Assembly (NCBI GenBank): GCA_043228905.1
Contig: JBHGNT010000016.1
Span: forward strand, 3,286,001-3,350,000
DNA from: Azolla caroliniana
Lineage: Eukaryota; Plantae; Polypodiophyta
Direction: 5' to 3'
DNA: 64,000 bases
This document shows positions 10,853 to 54,765 of the stretch, piece after piece. A program made the position numbers and the translations under genes. Positions within the stretch are counted from its first letter, which is position 1. The number at the start of each line of letters is the position of its first letter. The notes beneath the pieces are model-generated. The model ran no database searches and was not told the DNA's origin. It saw only the letters and a program-made list of their open reading frames with translations.

Positions 10853-10924
10853 GAGAGGTCATCCACATTCTTTACCAAGGATAATAATGCAGGGGAGAGG
10901 AGGGGTATTCCCAAATATTTGGAA

Positions 10925-22421: not shown

Positions 22422-22772
22422 TCACGTACTTCCTGTCAGTGATGGAGTAGAAGAAATCGGAGGACAATCGATGAAAAGGACGAAAGGAAGAGGAAGAGAA
22501 AGACTGTAGGAGGCGGAGGAGCTCAAGAAGCAGGATAATTGGATCGGCGAGGAAGATGCAGACAGGAGAGTTATCAAGAGGAACATGATCAGATCTCATG
22601 GATGTGAAGAAGGAAAACAGCATCCTTACCTTCAGAAGGAGAAGGAAAGGTATGCGTTATCTGACTCACAGTATGTGGACAGAAAGCATCAGGATCACGG
22701 CAAGCCCAAGCTCATCTCCTCCATCTCCGCCTCTTCTCCCAAGCTTCCATGGAAGCGATAGCTGATTATTAT
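22422..22772 (-). pseudogene. Inverted relic of LecRK kinase C-terminus (copy 2), including stop codon
   Basis: Reverse complement aligns to the HGSL...MSLACCHPD...SQI segment and ends CCATCACTGACAGGAAGTACGTGA (PSLTGST*), versus PSLTGR* in copy E. Followed on the minus strand by an (ATAC)n tract like the LecRK 3' flanks. Confidence 0.8.
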
Positions 22773-23719
22773 TAATCCTCTGTAAACTCAGTACTCGCCA
22801 GAGAGCAATTATGTGCAGAGAGCTTTGTCTTTGTCAGAACCTCGATGACATATAGTGTATGTACATTGTCCCTTTCTTCTTCTTACTTTGCAGTAAATTA
22901 ATTATTACGAAAACTGTCAAATAATGGAATTACAGTACTACAATCTAATGATCTTATTGAAATTATGAAAGAAATGGGTTGCACAGTTCAGTTTGGTTCA
23001 GATCGGGAGTGTCAAACTCAAGCCGATCAAAACCAAACCGTTTAACAAAATTGAAACTTAAACCGAACCGAACCACGAAACCATTTCAAAGTGAAATCGT
23101 TCGAAGTGGAACCTTTAAAAAAAATTCAAACCGTTATAACTGTTTTGCAGCATGGTACGATTTGAAGTCAGGTCAAAATTCAAATTTACAATTTTACAAT
23201 TTTATATTTCTATTATATTTATAAGTATTAATAAAATTAAACATTAGAAAGCATGAAATGCAATGGATATGAATCTAATATTCCCCTAGAGACATAGCAA
23301 TCTCCTAAACATTAAAGGTGGAATAAGCAATTAAACATTAAAAAGCATGGAATTCAATGGTAATGAAAATAATATTCCCTTGGAGAAATCTCACCACTCA
23401 CAAAAGGGAGGAAAATAGAAAATTCCTAATTCTCCTATTCACAAATGCTGTTCAGTGTTCATTAACAGTCCACTTTTGAGAAATTGAATAAGTCTAAGAC
23501 TCACATCACACTTAAAACATGCCATGGATGTCACAGATGTACATTTCGCAAAACAATTCATAGATAGTCAAATTGACTTGTCCCAAGACCCTTAAGACAG
23601 CTCATCTTTGATTGTTTTGTTGACATTTGAGGATTAACCCTAATTTATCATCAGTTAAGTAGTTTTCCATATTTTTAGTTTTTTTTATTATTAGCATCGC
23701 TCAACGTTTAAGAAGGAAT

Positions 23720-24336
23720 TCGCAATGGGCCCAGTTCAGTTTCTTTGCCTTGAAATGATACCGAACTGAACCGAACCATTTATATCAAACAAAAACCAAA
23801 CCAGAATCAAGCCATTTAAGAAAAGGTAAACAAACCATTTAGGGAAAAGTTCAAACCAAAAACCGAACCATTTTAAGTTAAATGAATTAAAAATCTAATT
23901 AAACAAAAATATTTTTGTTGGAGTTAAGGGTCGTGTGAGTTTTTGCTGTTTTTGTTTGATCGCACTGAGGATTCAGGTATTTGCTAACTAATGCGAAGTA
24001 ATGTTTTTTGGAAAAATATATAAATAAACAAAAATAATTTTAAATTAAATTAGCACTTAAGTTAAATTTATTAAATTAATAAAAAAACTTGATTAAACCA
24101 TTAATTTGATAAGCATTTAAGTTACATTAGTTAAATGAATAAAAAGCATTAATTAAATCATTAAATCAATGAACCATTAAGGGAATTAAATGTAACAAAA
24201 AACCGTGTAACCAAACCACTTCGACCTATAAAAAGATAAAAGCAAAGTTTTAGAACCAAACCACTAAACTTTTTTCGGAACCGATAAACTGTTAATCGTA
24301 TCGGTTCAGTTTGAGCCGACACCAGGCCCACAGCTA
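23720..24336. mobile_element. hAT-type MITE upstream of copy D (same site as 19888)
   Basis: TIRs TCGCAATGGGCC / GGCCCACAGCTA; TSD GAAGGAAT (23712-23719, 24337-24344). Confidence 0.88.
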
Positions 24337-24935
24337 GAAGGAATGAAGTTCCACTTATTTCTTTTCAAACAAAATGTTGGACTTTTGATTCTTCCTAAGA
24401 AATTAATGATTAGGTGAAGAAATCTTCCAGCTCTAAAGAGTTTGACCAATGCACCCATTGGAAAATAAATATGTACAATGCATCAAAAGTTTATTGAGTA
24501 ATTGCTTTAAATTTGCTTTACTCAAACTCCAGCACGAGGACAACTTGACAATATATGATTGACAGATCAATAATACATGGTGCTATCTATGACTAGAGTT
24601 GAATTTTACCATCTACATACATACAGACCATGAGCTAAAGTTCCAAGCATGTCCAAAGAACAAATATGTATGTGTTTCAAGCTGCCCCAAAATGCCCAAA
24701 GGGTTATGAAAAAATAAAAACATAAAAGAATACTTAGAATGTGTGTCTATATGAACTCAAGTGTGCAAATAAGTGTGACTGCCACCATACATACTGTTGC
24801 TCTTTTATACCATTTTTGAAATGATCTCCAATCCAAAGGCCCAGACTAGTAGTATATCACTAATATTATAGAGTTTTCAATTCTTCTTTACTTCTGGTTG
24901 CAAACGCACCATTATCTCCGAGGAACCTTATTGTT

Positions 24936-27071
24936 ATGGCCTCTTCTTCTTCCTTCATCATCCCCATCTTCCTGGTTTTCTGGGCAATCTCTGTTCTTAA
25001 TGCCTCATCATCATCTTCTTCTTCATTTAACACTAATGTCCAATTCCATTTCAATGGCTTCTCCCTCACAGATGTCTCCCACTTCAACTTCACCCAGTAC
25101 TCCAACATACAATTCACTGCATTGCAGGTGACGTATGACACCGGCTCTCGTGATATTGCTATCCTCAATGCATCTGGCCAAATCACATATCAAACTCCCC
25201 TCCGTCTCAGGGACAAAACACACAACTACACAGCATCCTTCAACACCTCCTTCTTGATCAATATGGGGCCAACCCAGGATACCGGCAAGAACATCTCCGG
25301 TGGCGGAATGGCCTTTATATTGAGCTCGCATCCTGCACAGGATGTGCCCCGTAGCTACGGGGCAGGACTCGGACTCGTTGATCCTTCAAACCCCTCGTCT
25401 ACCAATGATTCTAACTTTGTGGCTATCGAATTCGACACCTTTTATGACCCCGGCATCGACCCCCACAACGCCAACCATGTCGGCATCGATGTCAACACTG
25501 TCAAGTCTGCGGTCACCCAAGACCTCGATGCATATAACATCACTTTGAATCAGAATCTCTTGAACGTGGGAACCTACACATGGGTTTGGATCGATTATGA
25601 TAGCCATGCCAAGGGCTTCGACATTTTCCTCGCTACCAAGGTCTCGAACAGCACCATCCCAAAACCTAAGGTGCCTGTTATTCAGTATTGGTTAGAACTT
25701 GATCAGATCCTTCCGGAGAATGTCTACTTGGGCTTCTCTGCATCCACAGGCACCATCAAAGAGACCCACTGTGTCCTACAATGGTACTTCAACTCCACTA
25801 GCTTCCCCAAGGAAAACAACAAAACCCTAATCATAGGCCTCTCTGTGGGCTTATCCATACCACTCCTTCTCATAGCTTCCATGGTGACGCTCTGCATTAT
25901 CAAACAGAGGAAAGTGCAATCAGATCTACTTAAGCATTTAGGAGATCTAAACTATGGTCCCAGGAGATTCTCTCATAGGGAGCTGAAGAGGGCCACTGGC
26001 AAGTTCAGTGAAGGGAACAAGCTTGGGGAGGGAGGTTTTGGCTCGGTGTACAGGGGGAGGCTAGCCTCCATCAATACAGAGATAGCAGTGAAGTGCCTGT
26101 CGTCCAAATCCGCACAAGGAGAGAGGGAGTTCAAAGCAGAGATACGAAGCATGGGGAGGATGAGGCACAAGAACCTGGTCCAGCTCCTTGGGTGGAGCTA
26201 TGAGAACTGCAACAGAAAGCTCATGCTGGTCTATGAGTACATGCCCAATGGAAGCTTAGACAGATGGTTGTCTACAGGAGGCAGAAATTCTCGGCATAGC
26301 TCCACAGATCCACATCCTTTCAGTTGGGAGAGACGATACAACGTGTTGCGAGGGGTAGCAGCAGGCCTTCACTACCTCCATGAAGAATGGGAGATGGTGG
26401 TCATACACAGAGATCTGAAGCCAAGCAACGTGATGCTGGATGAGGATTTCAATGCGAGGCTAGGCGATTTCGGCCTGGCCAAACTCATCAGAAACCGTAA
26501 CCGTAAGCCTGATGGAGATGGACAGAGTATTCAGACGACTTCGATTGCTGGGACGTTAGGTTATATGGCACCAGAGTGTTTGGAGGCCGCAGTCATAACA
26601 AAGCAGTCGGATGTGTATAGCTTTGGAGCCGTGGCTATGGAGGTTGTCACAGGAAAGAAACTCTCCACACAGAATCTGCATCGGCTATGGATGATTAAGG
26701 CAGAAAGTGGTAATATTCTGAACAGTGAGTTTGCAGAGGAGAACGGTATCATCGGTTATAGCTCCCATGGAAGCTTAGAAGAGAGGGAGCAGATGGAGAT
26801 GGTGCTAGAGATGAGCTTAGCTTGCTGCCATCCTGATCCTTCCTGTAGACCTACGGTGCGTCAGATCGTACACGCCCTTTCGTCTTCTAATGGTGATGAT
26901 GGTGATGGAGACCCTAACCTGTCCACAGCCGTAACCTGGGAACACATTCATCGTTACATGAACTATCTGTCTGAATCTACCCAATGTAACAGGACCCCGG
27001 ATCCTTCTGCTTCTTCTTCTCCAGCTGCCATGGATTCTTCCATATCTCTACCATCACAGACAGGGAGGTGA
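24936..27071 (+). CDS. L-type lectin-domain receptor-like Ser/Thr kinase, copy D (711 aa, intronless)
   Basis: Uninterrupted ORF with signal peptide, lectin domain, TM helix and complete RD-kinase motifs (GEGGFG, IAVK, HRDLKPSN, DFG, APE). Confidence 0.96.
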   Translation: MASSSSFIIPIFLVFWAISVLNASSSSSSSFNTNVQFHFNGFSLTDVSHFNFTQYSNIQFTALQVTYDTGSRDIAILNASGQITYQTPLRLRDKTHNYTASFNTSFLINMGPTQDTGKNISGGGMAFILSSHPAQDVPRSYGAGLGLVDPSNPSSTNDSNFVAIEFDTFYDPGIDPHNANHVGIDVNTVKSAVTQDLDAYNITLNQNLLNVGTYTWVWIDYDSHAKGFDIFLATKVSNSTIPKPKVPVIQYWLELDQILPENVYLGFSASTGTIKETHCVLQWYFNSTSFPKENNKTLIIGLSVGLSIPLLLIASMVTLCIIKQRKVQSDLLKHLGDLNYGPRRFSHRELKRATGKFSEGNKLGEGGFGSVYRGRLASINTEIAVKCLSSKSAQGEREFKAEIRSMGRMRHKNLVQLLGWSYENCNRKLMLVYEYMPNGSLDRWLSTGGRNSRHSSTDPHPFSWERRYNVLRGVAAGLHYLHEEWEMVVIHRDLKPSNVMLDEDFNARLGDFGLAKLIRNRNRKPDGDGQSIQTTSIAGTLGYMAPECLEAAVITKQSDVYSFGAVAMEVVTGKKLSTQNLHRLWMIKAESGNILNSEFAEENGIIGYSSHGSLEEREQMEMVLEMSLACCHPDPSCRPTVRQIVHALSSSNGDDGDGDPNLSTAVTWEHIHRYMNYLSESTQCNRTPDPSASSSPAAMDSSISLPSQTGR

Positions 27072-28632
27072 GAGAGGTCATCCATCTTCTTCTTCTTCTT
27101 CTTCGTGCTTCATCCCTGATCTTGTTTAAGTAGTTAGTTTAGCAGGATAATGTAGGGGGAGGGGAGGGGTATTCCCAAAATATTTGAGAAAATACACACA
27201 CATACGTAACATTGATATACATGTACACATACATGTACATATACATACAATATACATATACATATACATATATGTGCATCAATAGCCATATGCATATGAA
27301 TATATAGATACATAGAGATATGCTTAAGCATATGCATATAAGTACATACATACATATATGTATGTGTATGTATGGATGGATGGATGGATGGATGGATGGA
27401 TGGATGGATGGATGTAAACTTATCATACCATGTTGCACACATATACATGTCCTCACCACCCATCAACCATCACGTAACATGACATACGAGTCATATTTGG
27501 AGACAATACCCCCCACGAGTCTAACTCTCTCCATATGTCAATGCATGATGATTTGTATGACCATGAACGAGTGGGACGCAATCTCACCTCGTGAATTCCA
27601 TCAGTGTTCTGGAATGCAAACAACAATCTCTCATTTATCAACTTTGTTTTCGCTACTCTCCTAGTGTCGATGCAACACTAATGAAGCATCCATCATTGGG
27701 TGTTTCTCTTGCTCACAAACGATCAAGCATCTTGATCTCTCCTAGTTTACAATGTATCGCAAACCCTTGCTTGCGAGAAAATGATCGGAGGTAAATATTT
27801 ATCCGTGGCCAAATTATCAATTTTGTGTTTGGCATGAATTCAGAATAACTCTTTACAATACAGTCAATCCCATCGTACAACATGTTAAAGTTGCTACGTA
27901 AATTGGTGTCATCAACTTTCTTCTTCTTCTTCTTCTCTCTTCTCGACATCCCCCTCATACACATCGATCCCCGTCATCCCTCGCATACACCCCTCTTTTG
28001 TATCACACGAGACTACATATTGTAGCCGTGAAATCTTTACTTAAGCTTTAATTTTTGTTTTTCGGTAGGACATGCTTGGGACTACTTTTTTTAGTAGCCG
28101 TCATTTTTGTACTTTTCAAAACTCTACCCCCCTTCATTTTCCTAAACTACCCTCCCACTCAATTTTCATTAATTACCACCCTACCCTTCCCCTCATTTTT
28201 CCCTAATTTCCACCTTACCCCTCCATTACCCTTTAGTTTAATACCCTCCTACCCCTCCCATAGTACCATCCTACCCCTACCCTCACTTTTGAAAATACTC
28301 TCCTCACCCTCCCCTACTTTTCATATTTTTACCTCTAGCCCTCCCCTCATCTAAACAATACTTTATCCCTATCCCTCATCTCTGTTAAAACTCTACCTTC
28401 CCCTTCTCTCTTACTTTTTAACCCCACACGTGTGCCCACATCACCATGCCCTTTTCCCTAGCTTATAACAACCTTACCCCTCCTTCCTTAAACATGCACA
28501 TGCACGTGTGCACATATACATACACATCCCTTCCCCACATCTAGCCCTATCCCTCCCCTCATCTAAACCCATACTTTATCCCTATCCCTACCCCTCATCT
28601 CTCTTAAAACTCTACCTTCCCCTTCTCTCTTA

Positions 28633-33838: not shown

Positions 33839-34373
33839 GTGGCTCTAACCATTATATAAATTGGTACATTGACTTTACTAATGCTAGGATGAAATCGTGA
33901 TGTTGATAGATCTATATTGACCTATGGGAGCAATTTTTCAAAATGCCCTCTTGATTATTGAAGTAGAATATTTGGTGGTAACTCATAGCTACAATCTACA
34001 AACAAACAACATTTCTCCACAACTAGTGGGATCTTTTAAGCAATAACCTCGAGATTCCACTGTGTTCATGTGCTAACTTGACCACTTTGCTTGATTGGCT
34101 ACATATTATCAGTTATATATATATATAGAAACTACCCTATATAGCCTTTCTCCAAAAATATCTCCTAACTAATGGGAAAGTAGCTCCTTTTTTGGATTAA
34201 AAAACAAACACCTCCTATTCCTTGGTCTCTTCTTTCCTTTTGTATATCAAAAGTTTTGGGCCTCATAAAATCAAACCACAAAATGGGGCAAATGGGCATA
34301 TACAAAGTGCTCACCACTTGTAAATTCAAGAGTCAAGAAAAGGTAACGTGGAAGAATAGCAATTACATGCTTT

Positions 34374-36377
34374 GTTGTTAAAGCTTCGTGTATTTTTACA
34401 AACACGTGCTAATAGAAACGTGAATTACATCAATATGTTATTCCATACATCAATAGATTTGCACGTGCTAATACAAGCTAGTAACCCATGAATATTCACG
34501 TGGTGTTGTGCATATAACTTACATGAATCTATTGGGTTAATATTCTTTTTTGAAACCTTTCCACTAAAAATATAGCCAAAACTAGATGCATGATGGAATG
34601 TACATGTGCATACATGCTTGTAAGTTGTATGCATGCATGCATCTATGTATGTATATACGTATGTAATAGGCATATATGTATGTATGCAAATATACATACA
34701 TACACGTATGTAAATGTATGTATGTATAATACGTATTTCAAATTATTCAAGATTTCAATTTTCAGTTTTAAAATTTTATACTTTTTAATATTTCAAATTA
34801 TTAAAGAAATTAAACATTAAAAGGCATGAAATGCAATGGATATGAATCTAATATTCCCCTCCACATAGAGCAATCTCCTAAACATTAAAGGTAGAATAAA
34901 CCACTAAACATTAAAAGGCATGGAATTCAGTGTATATGAATCTAAGTTTCCCTTGGAGAAATCTCGCCACTCACAAAAGGAAGGAAAATAGAAATTTCCT
35001 AATTCTCATATTAAATAAGTCTAAGAGTCACATTAAAAACGTGTTGTTAAAGCTTCGTGTATTTTTACAAACACGTGCTAATAGAAACGTGAATTACAGC
35101 AATATGTTATTCCGTACATCGATAGATTTGCACGTGCTAATACAAGCTAGTAACCCATGGAAAATCACGTGGTGTTGTGCATATAACTTACGTGACTCTA
35201 TTGGCTTAATATTCTTTATCGATACCTTTCCACTAAAAATATAGCCAAAACTAGATGCATGATGGAATGTACATGTGCATACATGCTTGTAAGTTGTATG
35301 CATGCATGCATCTATGTATGTATATACGTATGTAATAGGCATATATGTATGTATGCAAATATACATACATACACGTATGTAAATGTATGTATGTATAATA
35401 CGTATTTCAAATTATTCAAGATTTCAATTTTCAGTTTTAAAATTTTATACTTTTTAATATTTCAAATTATTAAAGAAATTAAACATTAAAAGGCATGAAA
35501 TGCAATGGATATGAATCTAATATTCCCCTCCACATAGAGCAATCTCCTAAACATTAAAGGTAGAATAAACCACTAAACATTAAAAGGCATGGAATTCAGT
35601 GTATATGAATCTAAGTTTCCCTTGGAGAAATCTCGCCACTCACAAAAGGAAGGAAAATAGAAATTTCCTAATTCTCATATTAAATAAGTCTAAGAGTCAC
35701 ATTAAAAACGTGTTGTTAAAGCTTCGTGTATTTTTACAAACACGTGCTAATAGAAACGTGAATTACAGCAATATGTTATTCCGTACATCGATAGATTTGC
35801 ACGTGCTAATACAAGCTAGTAACCCATGGAAAATCACGTGGTGTTGTGCATATAACTTACGTGACTCTATTGGCTTAATATTCTTTATCGATACCTTTCC
35901 ACTAAAAATATAGCCAAAACTAGATGCATGATGGAATGTACATGTGCATACATGCTTGTAACTTGTAAGTTGTATGCATGCATGCATCTATGTATGTATA
36001 TACGTATGTAGGCATGCATATACATACGTATAGGCACATATGTATGTATGCAAATATACATACATACACGTATGTAAATGTATGTATGTATAATATGTAT
36101 TTCAAATTATTCAAGATTTCAATTTTCAGTTTTAAAATTTTATACTTTTTAATATTTCAAATTATTAAAGAAATTAAACATTAAAAGGCATGAAATGCAA
36201 TGGATATGAGTCTAATATTCCCCTCCACATAGAGCAATCTCCTAAACATTAAAGGTAGAATAAACCACTAAACATTAAAAGGCATGGAATTCAGTGGATA
36301 TGAATCTAAGTTTCCCTTGGAGAAATCTCGCCACTCACAAAAGGAAGGAAAATAGAAATTTCCTAATTCTCATATTC
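34374..36377. repeat. Tandem triplication of a 669-bp unit upstream of copy E
   Basis: Near-identical blocks; matching spurious ORFs recur at 34425/35094/35763 and 34930/35599 (669-bp period). Confidence 0.95.
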
Positions 36378-36509
36378 ACTGTTCAATGACCGTCCACTTT
36401 TGGGAAATTAAATAAGTCTAAGAGTCACATTAAAAACGTGCCATGGATGTCACATATGTACATTTCCCAAATAATTCGTAGATGGTCAAAATTGACTTAT
36501 AACAAAATA

Positions 36510-36726
36510 CATTAAATTAAATAAATATTTAAATTAATAAAAAAAACATTAATCAAACCATTAAAAGGAAAAAAGAAGTGAACCAAAAACCTTTAAACCA
36601 AACAAGTTAAACCTATAAACAGATAAAGTCAAGTTTTAGAACCAAACCAAGCCAGTAATTTTTTTGGGAAATAATAAACTGTTAAGCGGTTCGGTTTAGT
36701 TTGAGCCTACAGTGGGCCCATAGCTA
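36510..36726. mobile_element. Partial hAT-type MITE upstream of copy E (same site as 19888 and 23720)
   Basis: Right terminus GGGCCCATAGCTA followed by GAAGGAAC; left part deleted. Confidence 0.75.
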
Positions 36727-37523
36727 GAAGGAACGAAGTTTCACTTATTTCTTTTCAATTGAAATGTTGGATTTTAGATTCTTTCTAAGAAATAAATGAT
36801 TGGGTGGCAAAATCTTCCAACTCGAAAAAGAGTTTCAGTTCTAGTTCGTGGGGTACAAATTGACCAATGTACAATACATCATAGAGTTTACTAAGTAATT
36901 GCGTTAACTTTGTAATAACTTCCAAAGCCAAAGTTGGGCATTGTGAGCCCAACATGGTCAACGTGATGCGCATTTTGTACTCGATTCCAGAATGCGGACA
37001 AGTTGACAATATATGATTGACAGATATCAATAATGCATGGTGCAAACTATGACAAGAGTTGAATTTCACCATCTACATACATACAGACCATAAGCTAAAA
37101 GTTCGAACAAACCCTTTTGTTTGTCGATTTGTAGGCTGCCAAAGACACGGAGCTTTTTGAGTTAGGAGGGTAGGTGGTAGTAAACACGATTTTGATAAAA
37201 AGCCAAGCATTGTCCAATGAGCAAATATGTATGGGTTTCAAGCCGACCAAAATGCCCTAGGGTAATAATGTATGACCCCCCCAAAAAAAACAACATTAAA
37301 GAATACTTTGAATGCGTGTCTATACATATGTCTATATGAACCCAAATGTGGTAAGGTGGACATAAGGGTGACAGCCACCATACATACAGTTCCTGAAATA
37401 ATCCCCAATCCAAAGGCCCAGACTAGCATATCATTAATATTATAGAGATTTCAATTCTTCTTTACTTCTGGTTGCAATCCAGATATATCGCATGCACCAT
37501 TATCTCCGAGGAACCTTATTGCT

Positions 37524-37601
37524 ATGGCATCTTCTTCTTCTTCTTCTTCCATCATTATCCTCATCTTCTTGGTTTTCTGGGCAATCTCTAGTCTGGATAC
37601 C

Positions 37602-37639
<38 letters not shown>

Positions 37640-39773
37640 TTCTTCTTCTTCTTCTTCTTCTTCACATCAAACTAATGTCCAATTCAATTTCAATGGCTTC
37701 TCCGTCACAGATGTCTCCCGCTTCAACTTCACCCAAGACTCCAACATACAATTCACTGCATTGCAGGTGACATATGATACCGGTTGTTGTGACAATGCCA
37801 TCCTCAATGCGTCGGGCCAAATCACATATACCACTCCCCTCCGTCTCTGGGATACTGAATACAACTACACAGCTTCCTTCAATACCTCCTTCTTGATCAA
37901 CATAGGGCCGACCCAAAATGCCGGAAAGAACAACTCCGGTGGCGGAATGGCCTTCATACTTAGCTCGCATCCTGCACAGGATGTGCCCAATAGCTATGGG
38001 GCAGGGCTCGGCCTCATCGATCCTTCAAGCCCCTCACCCACCAATGATTCTCACTTTGTTGCTATCGAATTCGACACCTTTTATGACCCCGGCATTGACC
38101 CCCACAATGCCAACCATGTTGGCATCAATGTCGACACTGTCAAGTCCGTGGTCACCCGAGACCTCGATGCATATAACATCACTTTGAATCAGAATCTCAA
38201 AGACAAGGGAACCTACACATGGGTTTGGATCGATTATGATGGCCATGCCAAGGCCTTCCACATTTTCCTCGCTAACCAGGTCTCGGACAGCACGGTCCCA
38301 AAACCTAAGGTGCCTGTGATTTCTCGATATCACTTAGAACTCGAGCGGATCCTTCCGGAGAATGTCTACTTGGGCTTCTCTGGATCCACAGGCACCACCA
38401 GAGAGACCCACTGTGTCCGACAATGGCACTTCAGCTCCACTAGCTTCCCCAAGAAAAACAACAAAACCCTAATCAAAACCCTAATCATAGGCCTCTCTGT
38501 GGGCTTATCCATAGTTATCCTTCTCATAGCTTCCATGGTGACGCTCTGCATTATCAAAAAGAGGAAAGTGAAACCAGATCTACTTGAGGATTTGCGAGGT
38601 CTAAACTATGGCCCCAGGAGATTCTCTTACAGGGAGCTGAAGAAGGCCACCGGAGGGTTCAGTGAAGAGAACAAGCTTGGGGAAGGAGGGTTTGGCTCAG
38701 TGTACAGGGGGAAGCTAGCCTCCGTCAGCACAGAGATCGCAGTGAAGTGCCTGTCGTCCAAATCCGCACAAGGCAAGAGGGAGTTCAAAGCAGAGATACG
38801 AAGCATGGGGAGGATGAGACACAAGAACCTGGTCCAGCTCCTTGGGTGGAGCTATGACAACTGCAAAGGAAAGCTCCTCTTGGTGTATGAGTACATGCCC
38901 AATGGAAGCTTAGACAGATGGCTGTCTACAGGAGGCAGGAATTCTCGGCATAGCTCCACAGATCCACATCTTTTCAGTTGGGAGAGAAGATACAACGTGT
39001 TGAGAGGAGTTGCGGCAGGCCTTCTCTACCTCCACGAAGAATGGGAGATGGTGGTCATACACAGAGATCTGAAGCCTAGCAACGTGATGCTGGATGAGGA
39101 TTTCAATGCGAGATTAGGCGATTTCGGGCTAGCCAAACTCATCAGAAACCAGGACCGTAACTGTAACCCTGATGGATATGAACAGAGTACTCGGAGGTTT
39201 TCAATCGCTGGGACTCCAGGTTATATAGCACCCGAATGTTATGAGGCAGGATCCGCAACAAAGGAGTCGGATGTGTACAGTTTCGGAACCATGGCTATGG
39301 AGGTTGTCACAGGAACGAAACTGTGTCCACAGATTTTGCATTGGCTATGGAAGATTAAGGAAGAGGGCGGTAACATTCTGAATAGTGAGTTTGCAGCGGA
39401 GAACGGTATCTGCTACAGCTCCCATGGAAGCTCAGAAGAGAGGGAGCAGATGGAGATGGTGCTAGAGATGAGCTTGGCGTGCTGCCATCCTGATCCATCC
39501 TGTAGACCCACTGTAAGCCAGATCGTCCATGCCCTTTCTTCTGCTAATGGTGATGGAGACCCAATGTTCGCCATCACCGTGACCTCGGAAATGATGGATC
39601 GTTATAACAGAATGTCTGCATATACCTACTCTGAGGAATTCTGGGATCCTCCACCTCCTCCTCCTCCTACTACTGCTACGTCTTCTTCTTCTTCTTCTTC
39701 TTCTTCTTCTTCTTCTGATTTTGCCACTGGCATGGATTCTTCCATCTCTGCGCCATCGCTGACAGGGAGGTAA
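37524..39773 (+). CDS. L-type lectin-domain receptor-like Ser/Thr kinase, copy E (749 aa, intronless)
   Basis: Uninterrupted ORF: signal peptide, long poly-Ser, lectin domain, TM helix, complete kinase (HRDLKPSN, DFGLA, GTPGYIAPE), Pro/Ser-rich tail. Confidence 0.96.
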
Positions 39774-40278
39774 GAGGAAGGAGCTCCATCCCCATCTGAG
39801 TTACCTGCAGGCTCCATACACACACTCCCAGTAGGGGTATTCCAATAATTTTGGGAAAATACACACGTATATACATACGGTGCTTGTACGATTCACAATT
39901 GAGGTACACTAATGTAACTCTTAAGATTTTTCATGCACATATATATTTCTTCTTCGTGAGTCGATTCCTACATGTTAGATGGTGGATTCCATCTCACACA
40001 AACCCATCTCCTTCTGGATGAAAAATAGAGTTATCTCCCTCCAAACACACACTCTGGGGCGGAGGGGTATTTCCATCATTTTTGCAAAACACACACAAAT
40101 ATACATACGGTGTTTGTACGATTCAGATTTGTACATTAATGCAACACTTAAGATTTTTCATGCATATATTTCTTCTTCACGAGTTGATTCCTACAAGTTG
40201 GATGGTGAATTCGATCTCACAAAGACCCACACCATATATATTCTAGTGTTGGATGACCTACTTTCAAGTGAAACATAC

Positions 40279-44000: not shown

Positions 44001-45404
44001 CACTCTTTCCAAAAAGGGTCATAACACCCTGTCGTAGGCCTTCTCAAAGTCTAACATCAGAATAGCCGAGCTCGATATGGCGCAATCTGCCAATGCCATA
44101 ACTTCCCAGAGAAGCAACACATTATCAAAGATACACCTACCCCTAATAAACCCTATTTGATTCTCATGTATGATGTCCGGTAGGAAGCTTGCTATTTGTC
44201 TAGCTAGGACTTTTGCGAGTATCTTGTATATCGTGTTAAGGATCGTGATTGGATGCCACTGGCGTAGCTCGACGCTTTGCCCTGCCGCTTTAGGGATGGG
44301 ATAGATCATCCCCTCAGCCAAGCCAGTTGGCATCGCTCCTGAGGTCCAAATCTCCCGAATCCCGGCTTCCAATGACGGGATAACAGTTTCCTAATGAATC
44401 TCAAAAAAATCTCGTGAGAGACCATCGGGGCCGGGGCATGCTCCTCTCCACAAATCCCTAAGTGCCTTTGAGAGTTCTAATTGAGAAATGGGGCCATCGA
44501 GCACAACTTCCATCTCATGGGTTACCTTGGGGTGAATTCAAGCCAACACCCTCTTAGCCAGCTCCATGTTTTGCCGCATATGCATAGGTGCGAGTAGGTC
44601 GCGATAGTATTGTGTTGCCATATGTAGAATCTCATCCTTGTCCTCCGTTATTGAGCCGTCTGGTTTGCACAACCCTTCTATATGTCCACCACCACCCTTG
44701 GGTGCCCTGGAGAGAAAGAAATGATGGTTGACCTTGTCGTCTGTTCTAGCCCACCATGCTGCGGTCCTTCGAAATAGCATTCAGTTCTTCTCCAACGTCC
44801 TTTCCCGCAGCTTTATCTTTGTTGGAGGGTGGCAGCTCCAACCCTGAACTCTCTTTCATCTTTATTATCTTTGTACTATATTCTCTCCCTTCCCAGATTC
44901 TTCCCTCTCTAGAATCTGCAACTCCTTTAATGTCGTCTCTCTCTAGAATTTGTAATGCTTTAAATGCCTTTTTTCTCTTCTACTTTTTCCAAGATATTCC
45001 CTTTTATTCCTAGTTTTTTGTACCTGTTTGGTAGTACAAGAGCCACTTTACTACCAAACAACCATTTCACCCACTTTCCCCAATTTTGTATAAATAGGTT
45101 ATACCAGCCTCTTTTGAAAAGACTTTTTTTACTTTGGTTGCTACTTAAAAACAAGCTCTATTCCTTGGCGGTGTCTTTGCTCTTTGCAACCATTTTTTCT
45201 ACTGCTGTCTAACAACCTTCTCACAGCTTGGCTGTGCCTATTTTGTTTTAAGTCTTCCGCTGCTGCTATTAACAGATTTTCTCACATGGTATCAGAGCAG
45301 TGAGGTCTCCATATCCTCAGCCTGATTTTTTTTGCCAAAGAGCACACAGACCTATCTTCTTTTATCCCTCCCTCCCAACCCTGTAGCTCAAGAGGAGGAT
45401 ATCC

Positions 45405-48400
45405 ATGGCCTCACATGCCACCATTGTTTCATCAACCATTCCCCAACTCCCCAAAGAATCCATCTTGGATGGGAACAATTACTTGGATTGGGAGCTACAA
45501 ATAAAGACCTTGCTACAATACCATCGTTTATGGAATGTAGTCAATGGTAGTGACAAGAAACCACCATTAACTTCATCCTCTTCAACCAAATCAGTTGCTG
45601 GCTCATCTAACGCTGAGATTGAAGCTTGGCTAGATAAGGATTCTCATGCTCATGCTTTCCTCATGTTTAATATTAAACCGAGCATCGCTCGTCAATTTCA
45701 AGATAAAGATGACGAGACAGCCAATGAACTATGGACAACCATCAAAAGGAGGTATCATCGAGCTAATCATGCTCAAATGATAGCTATTGAAAGACAACTA
45801 GCAAATCTCAAGATTCATGACACTCCCAACATCATGGATCAAATAACGGAATTTGTCACTCTCCAAAAGGAACTAGTTTCTTTGGGAAGCAAGTCCACTG
45901 AAGTTGAGTTTGTGCATCGTCTAATGATAAAGTTGTCTGAGTCATTCTCAGCCTTTTGTGACACCATTTCTCTTCTTCCCAACACACCTGACATGAATAC
46001 ATTTCTTGGTATGCTACAAGATAGGGCAACAAGGAAGAAAAGTGCTCAAACTTCCAATGAGACGCTTCTACATGCGACAAGTAAAGGCAAGTGGAAGCAA
46101 AATGGTAACTCCTACAACAAACCCAATCCAAGACCGCCAAACAACCCAGCTTACAAGGAGCTCACTTGTCATTATTGTGGCTACAAAGGTCACATTCAGC
46201 CAGATTGTCGGAAAAAGAAAAGGGACAATACTAAGAACTCTTCTTCTACCAGAAATCAACCTACACCGAAATCCAACTCGGCCCACTCAGCCAAAGAAAC
46301 AGTTTTCCTTGGCATTGAGGAACATACTTCACATTTGGCTGGACCAACTACTTCAACCATCGATGAGTGGTTAGTAGATAGTGGTGCCACTTCACACATG
46401 ACCTATGACAAATCCATTTTGCATGATGTGAAGCCTAGCTCTTCCCAAATCTCTATAGGAGATGCCTCAAGCATTGAGGCTTCATGTGTGGGTAATGTGG
46501 TTCTTGACAATTCTTCAAGTGAAGAACCTGTCGTTCTTCAAGATGTACTACATGTGCCTCGCATCTCTACCAACCTACTTTCGGTTTACAAAATCACCAA
46601 GCAAGGTTATGGAGTCTACTTTGATAGCTCAGTTTTGGAAGTGATTGACACCAATAGCCTACAAATTGTAGCTAGTGGCACACAAGAAGGGGGTTTATAT
46701 CGGCTAAAAAGCTCCCATAGCCCCTTGGAAAACTCCAAATCTCATCATCTTCATCTTCTTCAAGGCTCTCATGCCTTGGTGGCACAAGAAGATCCCACAT
46801 TGTGGCATGCTAGGTTTGGTCATCTCAACTATGATTCTCTTCAAAAGCTCTCCTCCTCCCAACTAGTTGAGGGTCTTCCTATTTTCAAATCTCCCAATAC
46901 CCCATGTGTTGCTTGTCTTCATGGCAAGCAACATCAAGAGCCTTTCCCTCATGAAGCCACTCACCGGGCAACATCTATCTTGGAGTTAGTGCACATGGAT
47001 CTTTGTGGTCCCATGAAAACCACTACTCTTGGTGGTGCACGCTACTTCATGCTTATAATTGATGATTTCTCCCGCAAGGTTTGGGTTTATTTTCTTGTAG
47101 AAAAATCCCAAGCCTTCACAAAATTTCAAGAATGGGTAGCTCTCGTGGAGAACGAGACATTGAAGAAAGTTCGAAAGATCAGGTCGGACAATGGTGGAGA
47201 GTTTATCTCCAAAGCTTTCCACCATTTCTGCTCTCAACGAGGCATTGCTCGCCAATTTTCTACACCCAATAATCCTCAACAAAATGGAGTCGTAGAAAGG
47301 AAGAACCGGACAGTCCAAGAGATGGCTCGTATGATGCTATCTCAATCTGATCTTCCTCTCTCATTTTGGGGTGAAGATGTCAACACAGCAGTCTACACCA
47401 TCAACTACTGCCCAACAAAAGCAGTTGCTAGAATGACGCCTGAAGAAGCATTTATAGGTGTAAAGCCCTCAGTATCTCATTTTAAAGTCTTTGGTTGTGA
47501 TGCTTATGTTCACATTTCAGATCATAAAAGGACGAAATTTGAGTCCAAAACCAAGAAATGCAAATTTCTTGGTTACAGCACACAATCTAAAGCATACAGG
47601 TTATGGGATTTAGAGTCAAAGTCCCTAGTCATATCTAGGGATGTTCATTTTGTGGAGTCTCAGCCGGATGACTCTAGGATTTCACCTGAGTTCATGGTTG
47701 AAATCCAAGCTCCTCCGGAATCTCCTATTTTAGACGAAGATGTCTCATCTTCAAGCCCCCCATCTCCTCCTACTAAATCTCTAACTTCGCCAACAATTCA
47801 AACCTCTCCCTCAACTCCATTTGTTTCCACTCCCTCTACAAACCAGCTTCCACCACTTCCCAAGTGGCTTCAAGCCACCATTCGTGATTCTCATCTCTCC
47901 GATGCTGAACTTCATGAGTATACATATGGTTCTCGAACACGTAAGTCACAACGGCCTCTTCACTCATGCAACTTTGCCTTATTGTGCACTGTTGTGCAAT
48001 CAAAAGAACCCACAACAGCAAAAGAGGCCCTTGTTCTTCCAAAGTGGACAACAGCAATGGAAGTTGAACTTGATTCCATTGAGCGGAATCATACATGGGA
48101 GCTGGTCCCACGACCTCCACATCGACAAGTCATTGGATTGAAATGGATTTTCAAGACCAAATACCATGCTGATGGTACTTTGGATAAGCACAAGGCACGT
48201 TTAATGGCAAAAGGCTACTCACAAGTTGAAGGAGTGGATTATGAGGAAACTTTTGCTCCAACAGTAAGGTACACATCTATCCGATATGCGCTTGCACTTG
48301 CTGCTCACAACAAATGGGCCATTTTTCAAATGGATGTCAAGTCAGCCTTCCTTAACGGTGACTTAAAAGAGGAGGTTTATGTTGAACAGCCTCTAGGTTT

Positions 48401-50382
48401 CGAGATTTTAGAGTGGAAAAACATGGTCTACAGGTTACACAAAGCCTTGTATGGCTTAAAGCAAGCTCCCAAAGCTTGGCATGACAAAATTGATAGCTTC
48501 TTTCTTTCTCTTGGGTTTCAAAACTGTAATGCTGACAACAATCTCTATGTTTTTTCCCAAGATAATTTGCTTTGCTTGATCATATTATATGTTGACGACC
48601 TTCTAATTACAGGGTCCCTTGCATCTAAAATCGAGGAGGTCCGCATTGACCTCAAAACAACCTTTGAAATGACTGATCTAGGACTTCTCCATTATTTCAT
48701 AGGTATGGAGGTCTATCAATCACATGGTGGTATCTTTCTCAGCCAACATAGGTATCTCAGGCAGCTCCTTGAGACCTATAACATGACAAATTGCAAGCCA
48801 TTGTCCTGTCCAATGGATCCAAACTCAAAGCTATCTCGTGAAGAAGATTCTCCCATATTTGAGGATATCACGAAATATAGGAGATTAATCGGGTCCCTTC
48901 TTCACTTAACTTATACCAGGCTTGATTTGTCCTATAGTGTGAGTATTCTCAGCCAATTCTCAACTGCTCCAAGACAAAGTCATTGGCAAGCAGCTATTCG
49001 AGTTCTTCGGTATTTGGCCAACACACTCGACTATGGTCTATCTTTTAGAGGCGGCATTGAGCTTGTTGGCTACTCATATGCTGATTGGGCAGGTGATATT
49101 GATTCTAGAAGGTCCACATCTGGCTATTGTTTTATGTTAGGTTCAGGCTTGATTTCTTGGAAATCGAAGAAGCAAAACTCAGTTTCTACTTCATCGACGG
49201 AAGCTGAATATCGCGCCTACTTGGATACTTGTTGTGAGTTGCTATGGTTGATGCAATTGTTTTCTCACATTGGTGTTTTGCAAGCCTCTCCTATTGCAGT
49301 TTTCACCGACAGCCAAAGTGCACGTTGTCGTGAAGGATTTGCTTCACGATATAAAAATAAATTTAAATATTGAATTCAGTAATATTTCAAACACTTGAAC
49401 CTACAACCTTATAAGCCAAGCACAATGTATATACCAATAGGGTAGGCTATTTGTTTTTAGAAATGTTGTCAAGAATGTGCTTCACTATATAAGAATAAAC
49501 TTAAATATTGTATTAAGTAAAATTGACGGACTTGAACCCTCAACCTTGTATATCAAGCACAAAGCATACACCACTAAGCTAGGCTATTTGTTTTAGGGTT
49601 ATATCCATCATTATACTTATCCCAATACATGGGAGCTCAAATGAGCATGATGGCTATCATGCATCACATGGAATGCATGTGCGCCAAATGGCGATCATGC
49701 ATAAGATGTAACTCATGCATTACATGAATGCCATTACCATATGCATGGAAATACTTATAAAAAGAGGGGCAAGGAAAACAAGAAAGGAATCAAGAGAGGG
49801 TGAGAAAATAATACAATTAATTAAAGAAGACTAGCTCATTGGGTGGAGAACCTCTCGTTTCGAAGTTGAGGTCGTGAGTTCGAATCAAGGGTCGGTAGAG
49901 AAAGGGTTCATCTTGCTACCAAACATTGTAAAGTTGGTAAAATCTTGTATTCGTAATACATATCATATACTTTTTTGTCTTAAATCATACTTTGTCTCTA
50001 TCTTGCGTCTTGAATCATACATTGCCTCTATCTTTTATCTATACTAGTCTCTCTCTCACACATATTACTTTAAACTATTATTCTTCATATCCTTTATCTT
50101 CCTAACATTTGCGCGCAAGCCTTATAAAAGTTCCTTCAACTCCCCTTAACCTTAGTCCCTGCGACTTCGCCGCAACAACCACAACTACCCCGACAACGTG
50201 CCTTGGCACATAGCTCAGCATTTCATGGTAGAACAAAACACATCGAAGTGCACTACCATTTTGTTCGTGACTTAGTGAAATCACAAGTCATCAACTTGGC
50301 ATATTGCCCTACTCAAGAAAATGTGGCTGATTTATTTACTAAGCCACTTCCAAGGCAAGCCATTGATCAACTCCTTGATTGA
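45405..50382 (+). pseudogene. Copia gag-pol polyprotein, interrupted in RNase H by an 870-bp insertion
   Basis: Gag knuckle CHYCGYKGHIQPDC, protease LVDSGAT, integrase (HMDLCGP, SDNGGEF, ERKNR), RT YVDD. Removing 49326-50199 restores DSQSARALAH...RTKHIEVHYHFVRD...ADLFTKPL. The first RNase H Asp reads Y (GYSYADWAG). Confidence 0.95.
49326..50195 (+). mobile_element. Solo-LTR-like insertion with 4-bp TSD ACGT and three tRNA-like modules
   Basis: TGTCGTGAAG...CCCCGACA; ACGT at 49322-49325 and 50196-50199; TATAAAAAGAGGGG at 49756. Confidence 0.9.
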
Positions 50383-53150
50383 CTCAATGTTGGACCACCG
50401 TTCTAGAGCTGAGAGGAGGTGTTGGAGGGTGGCAGCTCCAGCCCTGAACCCTCTTTCATCTTTATTATCTTTGTACTATATTCTCTCCCTTCCCAGATTA
50501 TTCCCTCTCTAGAATCTACAACTCCTTTAATGCCGTCTCTCTCTAGAATTTGTAATGCTTTAAATGCCTTTTTTCTCTTCTACTTTTTCCAAGATATTCC
50601 CTTTTATTCCTAGTTTTTTGTACCTATTTGGTAGTACAAGAGCCACTTTACTACCAAACAACCATTTCACCCACTTTCCCCAATTTTGTATAAATAGGCT
50701 ATACCAGCCTCTTTTGAAAAGACTTTTTTTACTTTGGTTGCTACTTAAAAACAAGCTCTATTCCTTGGCGGTGTCTTTGCTCTTTGCAACCATTTTTTCT
50801 ACTGCTGTCTAACAGCCTTCTCACAGCTTGGTTGTGCCTATTTTGTTTTAAGTCTTCAGCTGCTGCTATTAACAGCTTTTCTCACAATCTTTGCTTCGTC
50901 TAGCTTAGCTCTAGACCAATTGCAGCTAGGGTCTGCTTGTAGCAACCGTTGCGCGGCCGCAACGAACTTCTGTAATTTTGTTTCAATGGCTCGAACCTAC
51001 TGGAGGGCCATCTTGGTTTCCTGTTGTAAAAAGGAGGAGAGGGCCAATTTCTTCAGCAAATCCTCACTGGCCGATTCACTTACAATGGTCTCCTGCCAGA
51101 TGCTTTGCAACCCTGCTTTCACCTTTGCACTCTTCATGATCTTTGTGGGGATTTTCACATTGAGACTTCCCTTGCTACCGCGGGGTGGGTTAAGGTCTAG
51201 TCTCATAGGCTGGTGATCCGAGAAGGGAAGACCTGCCAAGATAGCGAAGGAGCCCCCCAGCTCTTCGAGGGACGAGCTGATGTATATGCGGTTTAGCCGT
51301 GCAAGACTACCACCCCTAGCATTCACGACAACTAGGGAGAAGTGTAGTGAATGTGAGCATCTCCTAAGGGAAGAGCTCCATGTATCCTTCACCCCAATTT
51401 TGCCAATTAGGAAAGCCCATGCGTCCAACTACGCACCATGAAGCGGTCTTTGGGTCCCCCCTTTCCTATCTCCCAAGTGCTCAGTCATATTGAAATCACC
51501 GGCCATTACCCATGCCTCTACATCAGGCAATGTTGTCGCTAACATCCTCCAAAAGATTGCTCTCTCGGGGGAAGAGTTAGGGGCATAAATGTTTAGCACC
51601 CCAATCTGAAGGTGATTCCATTTCAAAAGCACATATAAGGCTCTACCTGCCACCAGCGTGCCATGTGATGTTACTTCGTAACAAGCCTGATCGCTAATCA
51701 AGATGTAGACCCCTCCTCTTCGGTGGAGGTCACCGTGTGCAGCTGACCACCACGTGGTCCATCCACCCGACAAGGGGTTTACTAGGCTCTATGTTCTCTC
51801 TTGAGAGAGGTGGTGTTCCTACAAAAGCAATATGTCAATGTTGCCCCCTATATTAAGGGGATTCAACTCCTCCCGAAGTCTTTTGCACTCATGTTGTTGC
51901 CGGCCTCCACCAAGGCCCTGCACATTCCATGTTAGGATCCTCATCTGAAGGCGGTGAGGTTGACACCCATGTTGGGGCCGACCCCCATGTCAAGGGGAAA
52001 ACTATCATCTACTTCTGGGGGTAGGGACTCCATAATAGATTGGAGAGCCTCTAAGGGATTCCCAACTTGTCGTTCCTGGCCTGCTTCAAATAGTTCCCGC
52101 GATACAGTTTGGCTCCTAAGCGGTTGCATATCCTACACCCCTCTAGCTCAGAGAGACGTCGCCAAACAAGGTGATGGTCTGCCTATTTTGCCCTTGATCG
52201 TGCCCGTCCGGATCCATGACTTCATTAATCTGAGGTCACCACCACATTCATGTTCCATCATGAGGGGGGCCTTTGTCAACATCTCCTCTGGGGTGGACGG
52301 TACCAGTTGTGGTTGCATCTCCATCGGGGTGGAGAACACGAGCTTGGGGGACAAGGATTCGCATGGGGACAATGTTGCTGCCAACGCTTCTGGGTCGCCA
52401 TCCCCTAGCCCTTGGAGCAATGTAAATCTGTTGGACGCTCTCACCTGTAGGGTGTGCACCTCCGCACTCCCCAAGAGGATCTTCACCCGTTTCAAGGGTT
52501 GTTCGTCCACACTTGCTAGTGACAAGGTAGGAGAATTTCTTTCTACGGGACAGTCTTGAAAGAGGGGGGGAGAGGTTGCACCTAGGTTTCAAAGTTTCCC
52601 TTGCTTCTTAACGGGGTGCCAAGGAGCCTCGCTGCCCTTGGGTGGCGCAACCTTCCCTGAGGTTCGAGGTCCCAAGCTTCCCTTTCCAATCTTACAAGGA
52701 CATTCCTTAGCTAGGTGCCCTTTCTGTTTGCAGATGAAACACTGCCCAGGGAGTCCCTCATAAACCACATTCACCATTGTGAGACCTAACTCCTTAGAGT
52801 AGAGCCTAATTCTTGTTGGAAGTCCATGGAGGGAAGGCAGTAAGATGCGTAGCTTGGGCACCTCCGCTACTGTATCTGCCATGGACATTGTTTTAGGGAA
52901 AATCGTCCCTATTTGTTCGCCAAAAAAAAGGAGCAGATGACACAAATGGGGAGGGAGGCCAGGAAATGTCCCTACCACTGGTTGCGCCAACGTGCCATCA
53001 CCCAATTTAATGTGGAAGAAAGTTTTCCCTAAACCTTGGATGCTCTTGATCGGAGGAATGTTTTCCATCACAACCACTTGGAGCATGTCCCGAACCATGC
53101 CACGACATGGTCTACCTGCAAGGAACCTACATACAAAGGAAGTACGACGT

Positions 53151-53228
53151 TGTCGCATTGTTATGCGCGTGCGTGGAGAACAAGGCGGGACCGCTGGGGT
53201 CTTGGACCGAGGAATAAGTGAGGAAAGG

Positions 53229-53261
<33 letters not shown>

Positions 53262-53840
53262 GCTCACTCACGTATAGACAAAGAAGCACACGGGGACGCG
53301 GCCCAACAACACAGGAGACACGAGTTGAGAACACTAGAGTATGTATGTAAATATATGCATGTATTTGTAGGTATGCAAATGACTCGAACGGTTACAACCG
53401 ATCAGGTCGGCGAGATGGATGCCGACGCCTGATCACCCACGCACACAGGGGAGCAAGATGGAGATTTTGCCGGAAGCACACGGGCGTTCCACGGAGCAGA
53501 ATCAGCCTCCTGAGAACCTGCGCAAAAGAAAGCTATGGAGAGAAGAAGAGCTCGGTCCCAGTCCGACAACACTTCGTCCCCTCCAGCGCGCCCTACCTTC
53601 TCTCCCGTCTCCCTCTCTTTTATAGCTCAAGGAGGGAGGCCGTTTCACCCGTTTACATTACATTAATTCTCTGTCCTTTCGGACAGAGATTCTCCACGAT
53701 TCTCCCTATAGAATTTTGCTACCTAGTATTTGACTTTTGTGCCTACCTATCTACTATAAATCAAGGGGCGTGCCTAGTGTAAGGGCCGGTTCACACACGC
53801 TATACACGGTTTGCACCTAAGGACAGTTTTCTTCACGACA
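53151..53840 (-). mobile_element. Second solo-LTR-like insertion with 4-bp TSD ACGT
   Basis: TGTCG...TTCACGACA (minus strand starts TGTCGTGAAG); ACGT at 53147-53150 and 53841-53844. Excision restores LINE ORF1 LAEEIERLRRTSF. Minus-strand CTATAAAAGAGAGGG near 53625. Confidence 0.9.
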
Positions 53841-54765
53841 ACGTAGGCGTTCGATTTCCTCCGCTAAGAGCCGATTGGCCTCTAGGGACAGGGTGATGTC
53901 AAGATTTGTTCCGCTTTCTTCATGTAGCACAGTGGGTTCTAATGGAAGTTCAGTTTCTCCCACCATTGCACTCTATGGTTCTGTTTTTTGTTTTTTCCCC
54001 TTCCCTTTTGTCGTGTTTCGTTTTCTTTCTTTTTTTCCCCGTTTTTAAAAAAAATATTTTAAATATAAAATTTTGAGTTTTTAATAAATTTTTTAATTTT
54101 ATTTTTTAATTTTATCTTTTTTATTTATATATACTTTTTTTTGGGGGGGGGGGGGAGGGGGGGGGTATAGGTTTGGAGAGAGGGAGGCCCACTCTTCGAA
54201 TTGTGGGTTTGGAGGGGGCCACTCTTCGTTACATTACTATATGATGCTTCATTGTTATACATTTCATTATTATAGAAAGTACACAAAGATGCACAAATAA
54301 ACATAACTACCTCACAAAGATAATGAAACACATAAAATAAATATCGTGTTAATGTTTTTACTAATAAGTATGAAAAAAAAAGGTTAGTAAAACATTTAGT
54401 TTTAACTTAAAACTTAAAACATTAAAATCAAACCTAGAGTTTACACTCTTAAAGTATTTAAAAGGTTATTGTTTAAAATTTCAATCAAATTTCAACTAAT
54501 ATTATTAGTAAAAAATAAATATTTGAGAGTATATGTATATCATATTACATGATGATGATATTATTTTAAGCGTGTTATAAAAAACATATAGTATAAATAT
54601 ATATATATATTTTTTTCCAAAAAAAACACTACTTCCCATTAGTTAGCAAAAGAATTACATCGAAGAACAGCCATAATCAAAACAGCATAATCCTCACCTA
54701 ACTATTTACAACAAGAGTAACCCACTGCCTCTTTTTACATAGTGACCACCATGGTGACCACATAT

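What the first reader, a model, noticed from the sequence alone, without database searches (positions are those of the whole stretch)
49322..53844. Two distinct solo LTRs inserted at the same 4-bp target ACGT: possible sequence-specific LTR retrotransposon lineage
Seen: 870-bp and 690-bp inserts with no obvious internal similarity share TGTCGTGAAG at the 5' end, CGACA at the 3' end and a TATAAAA(A)GAG.GG box. Both duplicate exactly ACGT, proven by restoration of the host reading frames; one target is the palindrome GCACGTGC. Established: plant LTR elements usually make 5-bp TSDs with weak sequence preference, while 4-bp, sequence-biased TSDs are known from insect gypsy-group elements. Inference: an integrase preferring ACGT, a CpG-containing G-box core. 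Only two events are visible, so chance is not excluded.
Basis: partly seen in the sequence, partly recalled or inferred. Interest (0 to 1): 0.75.

Follow-up and report, generated by a model that had tools for sequence, protein, structure and literature searches.

The report
CG-targeting Phygy-type retrotransposon solo LTRs
The two inserts are leftover ends of two abundant plant jumping-gene families that land on a CG in the middle of a duplicated four-base site; this habit is already published for the moss Phygy group, to which they likely belong, so the finding is real but mostly known.

Summary
Both inserts are real solo LTRs (870 bp on +, 690 bp on -), each flanked by ACGT. They belong to two abundant Ty3/gypsy families with intact-looking 7.1-7.4 kb parents. 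Genome-wide the target is N-CG-N, not ACGT. In family A, 252 of 295 host-facing LTR ends are followed by NCG. In family B, 1625 of 1947 are preceded by NCGN, against a CG background of 2-6%. ACGT is only the commonest variant (524 of 1947, 27%). Parents have 4-bp duplications, a tRNA-Trp primer site, and no chromodomain or extra RNase H. That is the published profile of Phygy (Neumann 2019: 4 bp, NCGN, tRNA-Trp). A tree with labelled Phygy references could not be built. Additions here: named relatives in liverworts and a fern, a likely -1 frameshift after the protease (GGATTTT-TAG plus hairpin), avoidance of T/A at the duplication's edges, and a conserved acidic residue in the integrase. Verdict: new member of a known kind.

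The parts
49322..49325 (.). left copy of 4-bp target site duplication ACGT (insert 1)
49326..50195 (+). solo LTR of family A (870 bp, TGTCG...CGACA)
   Evidence: 440 exact LTR 3' ends in the genome; paired copies flank gag-pol
49326..49594 (+). two ~135-bp tandem repeats in U3 (80% alike), each with an antisense tRNA-like / B-box-like stretch
   Evidence: self-blast; relaxed ARAGORN, motif scan
49756..49766 (+). TATA-like box of LTR A
   Evidence: the pattern is found in 23 of 30 family-A LTRs
49829..49898 (+). degenerate tRNA-like segment with A-box and B-box look-alikes downstream of the TATA box
   Evidence: called only at relaxed ARAGORN threshold; A-box pattern in 27 of 30 copies; default ARAGORN and Rfam found no tRNA
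50196..50199 (.). right copy of TSD ACGT (insert 1)
53147..53150 (.). TSD ACGT (insert 2)
53151..53840 (-). solo LTR of family B (690 bp, TGTCG...CGACA)
   Evidence: at least 3683 LTR 5' ends in the genome
53615..53624 (-). TATA-like box of LTR B
53841..53844 (.). TSD ACGT (insert 2)
44820..50886 (+). host Ty1/copia element: LTRs 44820-45286 and 50420-50886 (97.6% identical), tRNA-Met-type PBS (recognised by eye), 5-bp TSD ATCTT; its RNase H is interrupted by insert 1
   Evidence: (RVT_2, rve, Retrotran_gag_2)
50892..53966 (-). 5' part of a decayed host LINE (ORF1-like frame interrupted by insert 2; endonuclease-like pieces; continues left of the copia element)
   Evidence: translations, recognised by eye; this copy was not confirmed with Pfam

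Best explanation
The two inserts are solo LTRs of two Ty3/gypsy retrotransposon families, likely of the Phygy clade, whose copies sit at 4-bp duplicated sites centred on CG. Shown: family-wide NCGN sites, paired LTRs, a primer site matching host tRNA-Trp, a polypurine tract, and gag-protease and RT-RNase H-integrase in two overlapping frames. Inferred steps: (1) the RNA is primed by tRNA-Trp; (2) Pol is made by a -1 ribosomal frameshift at G_GAU_UUU just before the ORF1 stop, helped by a hairpin; (3) the integrase cuts with a 4-bp stagger and, like other 4-bp-stagger integrases, kinks the target at a central pyrimidine-purine step, but has narrowed this to CG, probably through added base contacts; (4) LTR-LTR recombination left the solo LTRs; (5) host methylation later turned some target CGs into CA or TG.
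For: Family A: 440 LTR 3' ends, 145 followed by the primer site, 252 of the remaining 295 followed by NCG. Family B: 3683 LTR starts, 1736 preceded by the PPT, 1625 of the remaining 1947 preceded by NCGN. Any-YR centre is 1778, so 91% of YR-centred sites are CG, and the 9 non-CG rows among its first 100 are all CA or TG, none TA. Background CG is 2.0% (window) and 6.2% (flanks). Of 26 solo-like LTR records, 15 have an exact 4-bp TSD and 0 have an exact 5- or 6-bp TSD. Of 9 paired elements, 7 have identical 4-bp TSDs, 2 differ at one base, and all 9 have CG centres. The PBS equals the reverse complement of genomic tRNA-Trp plus CCA over 18 nt or more. Pfam finds RT, RNase H and integrase but no chromodomain or archaeal RNase H. 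The GGATTTT-TAG junction is present in 9 of 14 fetched stretches scanned, from both families, with a hairpin 5 nt after the heptamer (z -3.5 in A, -1.5 to -1.9 in B). G_GAU_UUU is a known -1 shift site (PMC5009743, passage). Phygy profile: 4 bp 100% (NCGN), tRNA-Trp 81%, no extra domain (PMC6317226 supplement). Retroviruses with 4-bp TSDs favour central YR and avoid T and A at the TSD edges (PMC4422553, passages); the same edge avoidance is seen here (T 2-4% at position 1, A 4-5% at position 4), although TCGA is the commonest NCGN in the window.
Against: No labelled Phygy sequence could be placed in a tree: the REXdb fasta supplement was too large to read, and none of the 305 listed homolog rows carried a Physcomitrium name. 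Element length (7081-7359 bp) lies just under the published Phygy range of 7656-9968 bp. TatI also has 4-bp TSDs and tRNA-Trp priming. About 15% of host-facing ends lack the CG (43 of 295; 322 of 1947); those seen include mutated PBS/PPT ends and CA/TG centres, but they were not all inspected. The family-B hairpin z-scores are weak. Frameshifting, priming and integrase contacts were not tested. The 11 non-exact solo-like records include one locus counted twice and at least two misclassified ends.
Confidence: 0.85

Rival explanations
1. A strict ACGT / G-box-specific integrase lineage new to plants.
For: ACGT is the commonest target: 524 of 1625 NCGN sites in family B, 32%, against 9% of NCGN 4-mers in the window (123 of 1310).
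Against: 73% of family-B host-facing ends are not ACGT. CCGT, CCGG, ACGC, ACGG and GCGT are common. NCGN preference is already published for Phygy.
Confidence: 0.03
2. A separate CG-targeting non-chromovirus clade (sister to Phygy, or related to TatI or fungal Ylt1-like elements) that shares the structural traits.
For: No tree with labelled references; size slightly below the Phygy range; gag-protease / RT split not reported for Phygy (organisation 'ND'); named relatives are from Riccia, Calypogeia and Adiantum, not Physcomitrium.
Against: The rare combination of a 4-bp NCGN TSD, tRNA-Trp PBS and no CHD or aRH is listed only for Phygy among the 31 lineage rows of the table. Neumann et al. call element size relatively insignificant for classification. 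Phygy has been called in a liverwort by others (PMC12885004, passages).
Confidence: 0.1
3. The CG bias comes from chromatin or methylation tethering, or from selection after insertion, not from base reading by the integrase.
For: Flanks are CG-richer than the window (6.2% against 2.0%); many copies sit in other repeats; target CGs decay to CA or TG, which suggests they are methylated at least after insertion.
Against: Regional tethering or selection cannot put a CG at the exact centre of the 4-bp duplication in 83-85% of sites; base composition outside about 5 bp is flat.
Confidence: 0.05
4. Non-autonomous DNA transposons (Ginger-like or MITE) with TGTCG/CGACA termini.
For: 5-bp inverted termini and 4-bp TSDs.
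Against: The same sequences occur as direct-repeat pairs around gag-pol with PBS and PPT.
Confidence: 0.01

Closest known systems
Phygy clade, non-chromovirus Ty3/gypsy (Neumann et al. 2019, PMC6317226; passages and supplement table MOESM5 read)
   Same: 4-bp TSD with NCGN preference; tRNA-Trp PBS; no chromodomain, no aRH, no extra ORF; polyprotein fills the internal region.
   Different: Described as specific to Physcomitrella patens, 7.7-10 kb, ORF organisation not determined. Here: 7.1-7.4 kb, gag-protease and RT-RH-INT overlap in -1 with a conserved slippery site, named relatives in liverworts and a fern, edge bias quantified (V-CG-B, ACGT modal).
TatI (same table)
   Same: 4-bp TSD; tRNA-Trp PBS in 75%.
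   Different: TatI has an archaeal RNase H in 100% of 4 elements and is about 9 kb; none was found here, and no NCGN preference is listed for it.
Prototype foamy virus and gammaretroviral integrases (PMC4422553, passages; PDB 3oym and 3l2q hits)
   Same: 4-bp stagger, central YR step, T and A avoided at the TSD edges; best PDB sequence hit for the integrase (E 3e-16).
   Different: Their preference is weak and covers any YR step; here it is nearly restricted to CG. The residue aligned to PFV Ala188 is Glu or Asp instead of a small residue.
Selgy and Galadriel
   Same: 4-bp TSDs (96% and 38%).
   Different: Selgy uses tRNA-Ala and is about 5 kb; Galadriel uses tRNA-Met and has a chromodomain.

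Membership tests
Ty3/gypsy LTR retrotransposon | paired LTRs with PBS and PPT around gag, protease, RT, RNase H, integrase in that order | tested here: met
Phygy | clusters with P. patens Phygy RT/RH/INT in a phylogeny (the primary criterion) | not testable with these tools
   REXdb fasta not readable; no Physcomitrium-named homolog among 305 listed rows; the tree has no labelled Phygy row
Phygy | 4-bp TSD | tested here: met
   15 of 26 solo-like records exact at 4 bp, 0 at 5 or 6 bp; 7 of 9 pairs exact
Phygy | NCGN target preference | tested here: met
   252 of 295; 1625 of 1947
Phygy | tRNA-Trp primer binding site | tested here: met
   63 genomic matches to a T-arm plus anti-PBS pattern; 6 of 6 fetched loci are tRNA-Trp(CCA) by ARAGORN; complementarity shown
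Phygy | no chromodomain, no aRH, no extra ORFs | tested here: met
   Pfam scan of pol from L061 and L070; two ORFs of 300 aa or more in L061
Phygy | size 7656-9968 bp (descriptive; the authors call size insignificant for classification) | tested here: inconclusive
   7081-7359 bp for 6 full-size elements, slightly below the range
TatI | archaeal RNase H domain | tested here: not met
   no such Pfam hit; RT 275-447, RH 513-639 and integrase zinc finger from 762 leave little room
Selgy | tRNA-Ala PBS, about 5 kb | tested here: not met
   tRNA-Trp PBS, 7.1-7.4 kb
Chromovirus (Galadriel, Tcn1) | chromodomain at the integrase C-terminus | tested here: not met
Fungal Ylt1-like clade | RT/INT clustering with Ylt1 | not tested
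   no labelled sequence available; only passages read

The most novel reading that the evidence does not exclude
The integrase of this lineage is a dedicated CpG reader, possibly of methylated CpG, so that a chromodomain-less retrotransposon steers itself into silenced, repeat-rich DNA by reading the methyl mark with its catalytic machinery. The lineage-wide acidic residue at the PFV-Ala188 / HIV-Ser119 position (DRG[E/D]) would be part of that altered target-binding groove. The lineage spans liverworts, ferns and moss.
Probability: 0.12. Interest if true: 0.65.

Novelty: new member of a known kind. Interest (0 to 1): 0.22.

Why it matters
The headline (a plant LTR retrotransposon with a 4-bp, CG-centred target) is already in print as one line and one table cell. 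This genome adds thousands of young insertions, which make the preference measurable and testable: it is among the sharpest target preferences one would expect from a retroviral-type integrase, and it falls on the host's main methylation site. It also suggests how Pol is expressed (a -1 shift after the protease) and a range beyond moss. Practical point: LTR finders set to 5-bp TSDs would miss a family with thousands of LTRs here.

Tried and rejected
Rfam and default ARAGORN found no RNA gene in the inserts. Three homolog searches, one cluster look-up and one Atlas search gave no Physcomitrium- or fungus-named relative usable as a Phygy or Ylt1 reference. The RT tree (37 rows) groups families A and B with unnamed proteins (96/96), among Riccia and Adiantum rows, but its only outgroup is a very long, half-filled branch, so it says nothing on clade membership. 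P. patens RLG2/RLG3 could not be compared: the supplement cell is cut at 400 letters and held no PBS or terminus match. A paper search for 'NCGN' returned almost only unrelated medicine among the 30 of 93 listed. A generic YR preference was rejected because CG makes up 1625 of 1778 YR-centred sites. The acidic integrase residue as the direct CG reader is doubtful: the equivalent retroviral residue contacts bases 2-3 positions outside the duplication (PMC4422553), and S124D abolished RSV strand transfer (PMC4005685, passage). Expression and sequencing reads were not examined. No structure was predicted.
Full report
Observation. They share no internal similarity beyond 13 nt. Insert 1 interrupts the RNase H of a copia element (44820-50886, LTRs 97.6% identical, 5-bp TSD ATCTT), a handy internal control for the usual 5-bp duplication. 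Insert 2 interrupts an ORF1-like frame of a decayed LINE (recognised by eye).

They are LTRs. Searches of the own genome (G000, 523 Mb) returned many full-length copies of each insert (40 candidates scored each). Many occur as direct-repeat pairs 7.1-7.4 kb apart, the first followed by a primer site and the second preceded by a purine tract. I fetched 14 pairs in 17 stretches. L061 holds two overlapping ORFs, gag-protease and RT-RNase H-integrase: gypsy order, with no chromodomain or archaeal RNase H by Pfam. Family A pairs are 99.0-100% identical (7 pairs) and family B pairs 97.1-97.5% (2 pairs). Five of the 14 pairs were left out of that table: three interrupted by nested elements, one tandem arrangement, one with a damaged end. 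The PBS is complementary to the 3' end of genomic tRNA-Trp.

Target site, genome-wide. Pattern counts are whole-genome. Family A: 440 LTR 3' ends; 145 face the PBS; 252 of the other 295 (85%) are followed by NCG. Family B, restricted to sites with A, G or T ten bases upstream: 3683 LTR starts; 1736 face the PPT; 1625 of the other 1947 (83%) are preceded by NCGN and 524 (27%) by ACGT. CG is 2.0% of dinucleotides in the window and 6.2% in nearby flanks. Any pyrimidine-purine centre gives 1778; the 9 non-CG rows among its first 100 are all CA or TG, as expected from later decay of methylated CG (inference). In fetched loci, 15 of 26 solo-like records have an exact 4-bp TSD and none an exact 5- or 6-bp one; the rest include one-base differences, one locus counted twice and at least two misclassified ends. 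T at position 1 and A at position 4 are nearly absent (2-5%), although TCGA is the commonest NCGN in the window. So the motif is V-CG-B with ACGT as the mode, and two ACGT hits in one window have about a 7% chance.

How it likely works. After tRNA-Trp-primed reverse transcription, the integrase joins both ends with a 4-bp stagger. Retroviral integrases with this stagger kink the target at a central YR step and avoid T and A at the edges (PMC4422553, passages), and foamy virus integrase is the best PDB match. These elements fit that geometry but accept almost only CG, which implies added base-specific contacts (inferred, about 0.6); a role for the methyl group is open. The residue aligned to PFV Ala188 is Glu or Asp in all 109 of 121 proteins where the motif was matched (12 had no match), against Cys in an unrelated gypsy nested in L075. 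This is a lead only: the hits are relatives, and in retroviruses that residue touches bases outside the duplication. ORF1 ends G_GAT_TTT_TAG in 9 of the 14 stretches scanned, in both families (four of the five without it are gag-only derivatives), followed by a hairpin (z -3.5 in A, -1.5 to -1.9 in B). G_GAU_UUU is a known -1 shift site in an umbravirus (PMC5009743, passage), so a -1 frameshift after the protease is likely but untested. Solo LTRs with an intact TSD are the normal product of LTR-LTR recombination (established knowledge).

Comparison with what is known. Neumann et al. 2019 (PMC6317226; passages; supplement table read whole) write that Phygy elements are the exception among plant LTR retrotransposons in preferring NCGN, and list 186 elements, 4-bp TSD in 100%, tRNA-Trp in 81%, 7.7-10 kb, no extra domain, organisation not determined. 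Jedlicka et al. (PMC6911290, passages) also note GC-rich centres in 4-bp TSDs and Phygy's 4-bp TSDs. Every sequence feature tested matches Phygy except a slightly smaller size. TatI, Selgy, chromoviruses and DNA transposons each fail a defining feature. The primary criterion, a tree with labelled Phygy, could not be run: the per-element table and fasta supplements were too large to read, and they may already hold finer TSD or frame details. Named relatives are Riccia (RT 66-75% identical), Adiantum nelumboides (RT 72-76%) and Calypogeia; Phygy has also been called in the liverwort Apopellia (PMC12885004, passages). Searches showed no paper on the mechanism of the NCGN choice or on this frameshift, within a library that lacks most subscription journals. 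One earlier, unreviewed note of this scan on another piece of this genome (e1-10618240) also names Phygy and guesses a fern host; I did not test the host.

Verdict. Real, well supported and mostly known: new members of the Phygy kind (confidence 0.85). Interest 0.22. The open, testable part is whether the integrase reads CG or methyl-CG (probability 0.12 for methyl-CG; interest 0.65 if true).

Noticed in passing
window 49829-49898 (+), 49519-49589 (-), about 49380-49455 (-): Family-A LTRs carry three degenerate tRNA-like segments with A-box or B-box look-alikes: one sense copy downstream of the TATA box and two antisense copies in the tandem U3 repeat. Possibly captured tRNA-derived SINE heads or Pol III elements. 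Called only at relaxed ARAGORN threshold.
   Followed up: partly
L065, L067, L068 (4.0-kb elements); L066: Family A has young gag-only deletion derivatives with 99.5-100% identical LTRs and NCGN TSDs: non-autonomous elements, probably moved in trans.
   Followed up: partly
L072 2776-7921: A third TGTCGTGAAG family (5.1 kb, TSD GCGT, tRNA-Trp PBS, same PPT as family B) nested in a family-B copy. It encodes one 1256-aa ORF: an N-terminal gag domain (36% identical to family A gag) followed by about 1000 low-complexity, repetitive residues, no pol and no Pfam hit.
   Followed up: partly
L061-L062 ORF1: Pfam DUF4100 (PF13352) matches the middle of this lineage's gag-protease ORF, also in Riccia and Adiantum proteins: the DUF appears to be a retrotransposon gag fragment.
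   Followed up: partly
G000:C8:17796786-17823371, C16:4989495-5105657, C5:10105608-10112201: Tandem clusters of matches to the tRNA-Trp 3' arm (about 1.2-kb spacing on C8), which suggests tRNA gene arrays.
   Followed up: no
L074-L075 (G000:C7:11191308-11208643): An unrelated gypsy element with 420-bp LTRs (99.8% identical) and an integrase motif SDQGC is nested just after the PBS of a family-B copy.
   Followed up: partly
window 2200-3700, 7900-10900, 20100-27100, 36500-39800: Several 75-95% similar copies of one repeat with long open frames, and 669-bp tandem repeats at 34373-36380.
   Followed up: no
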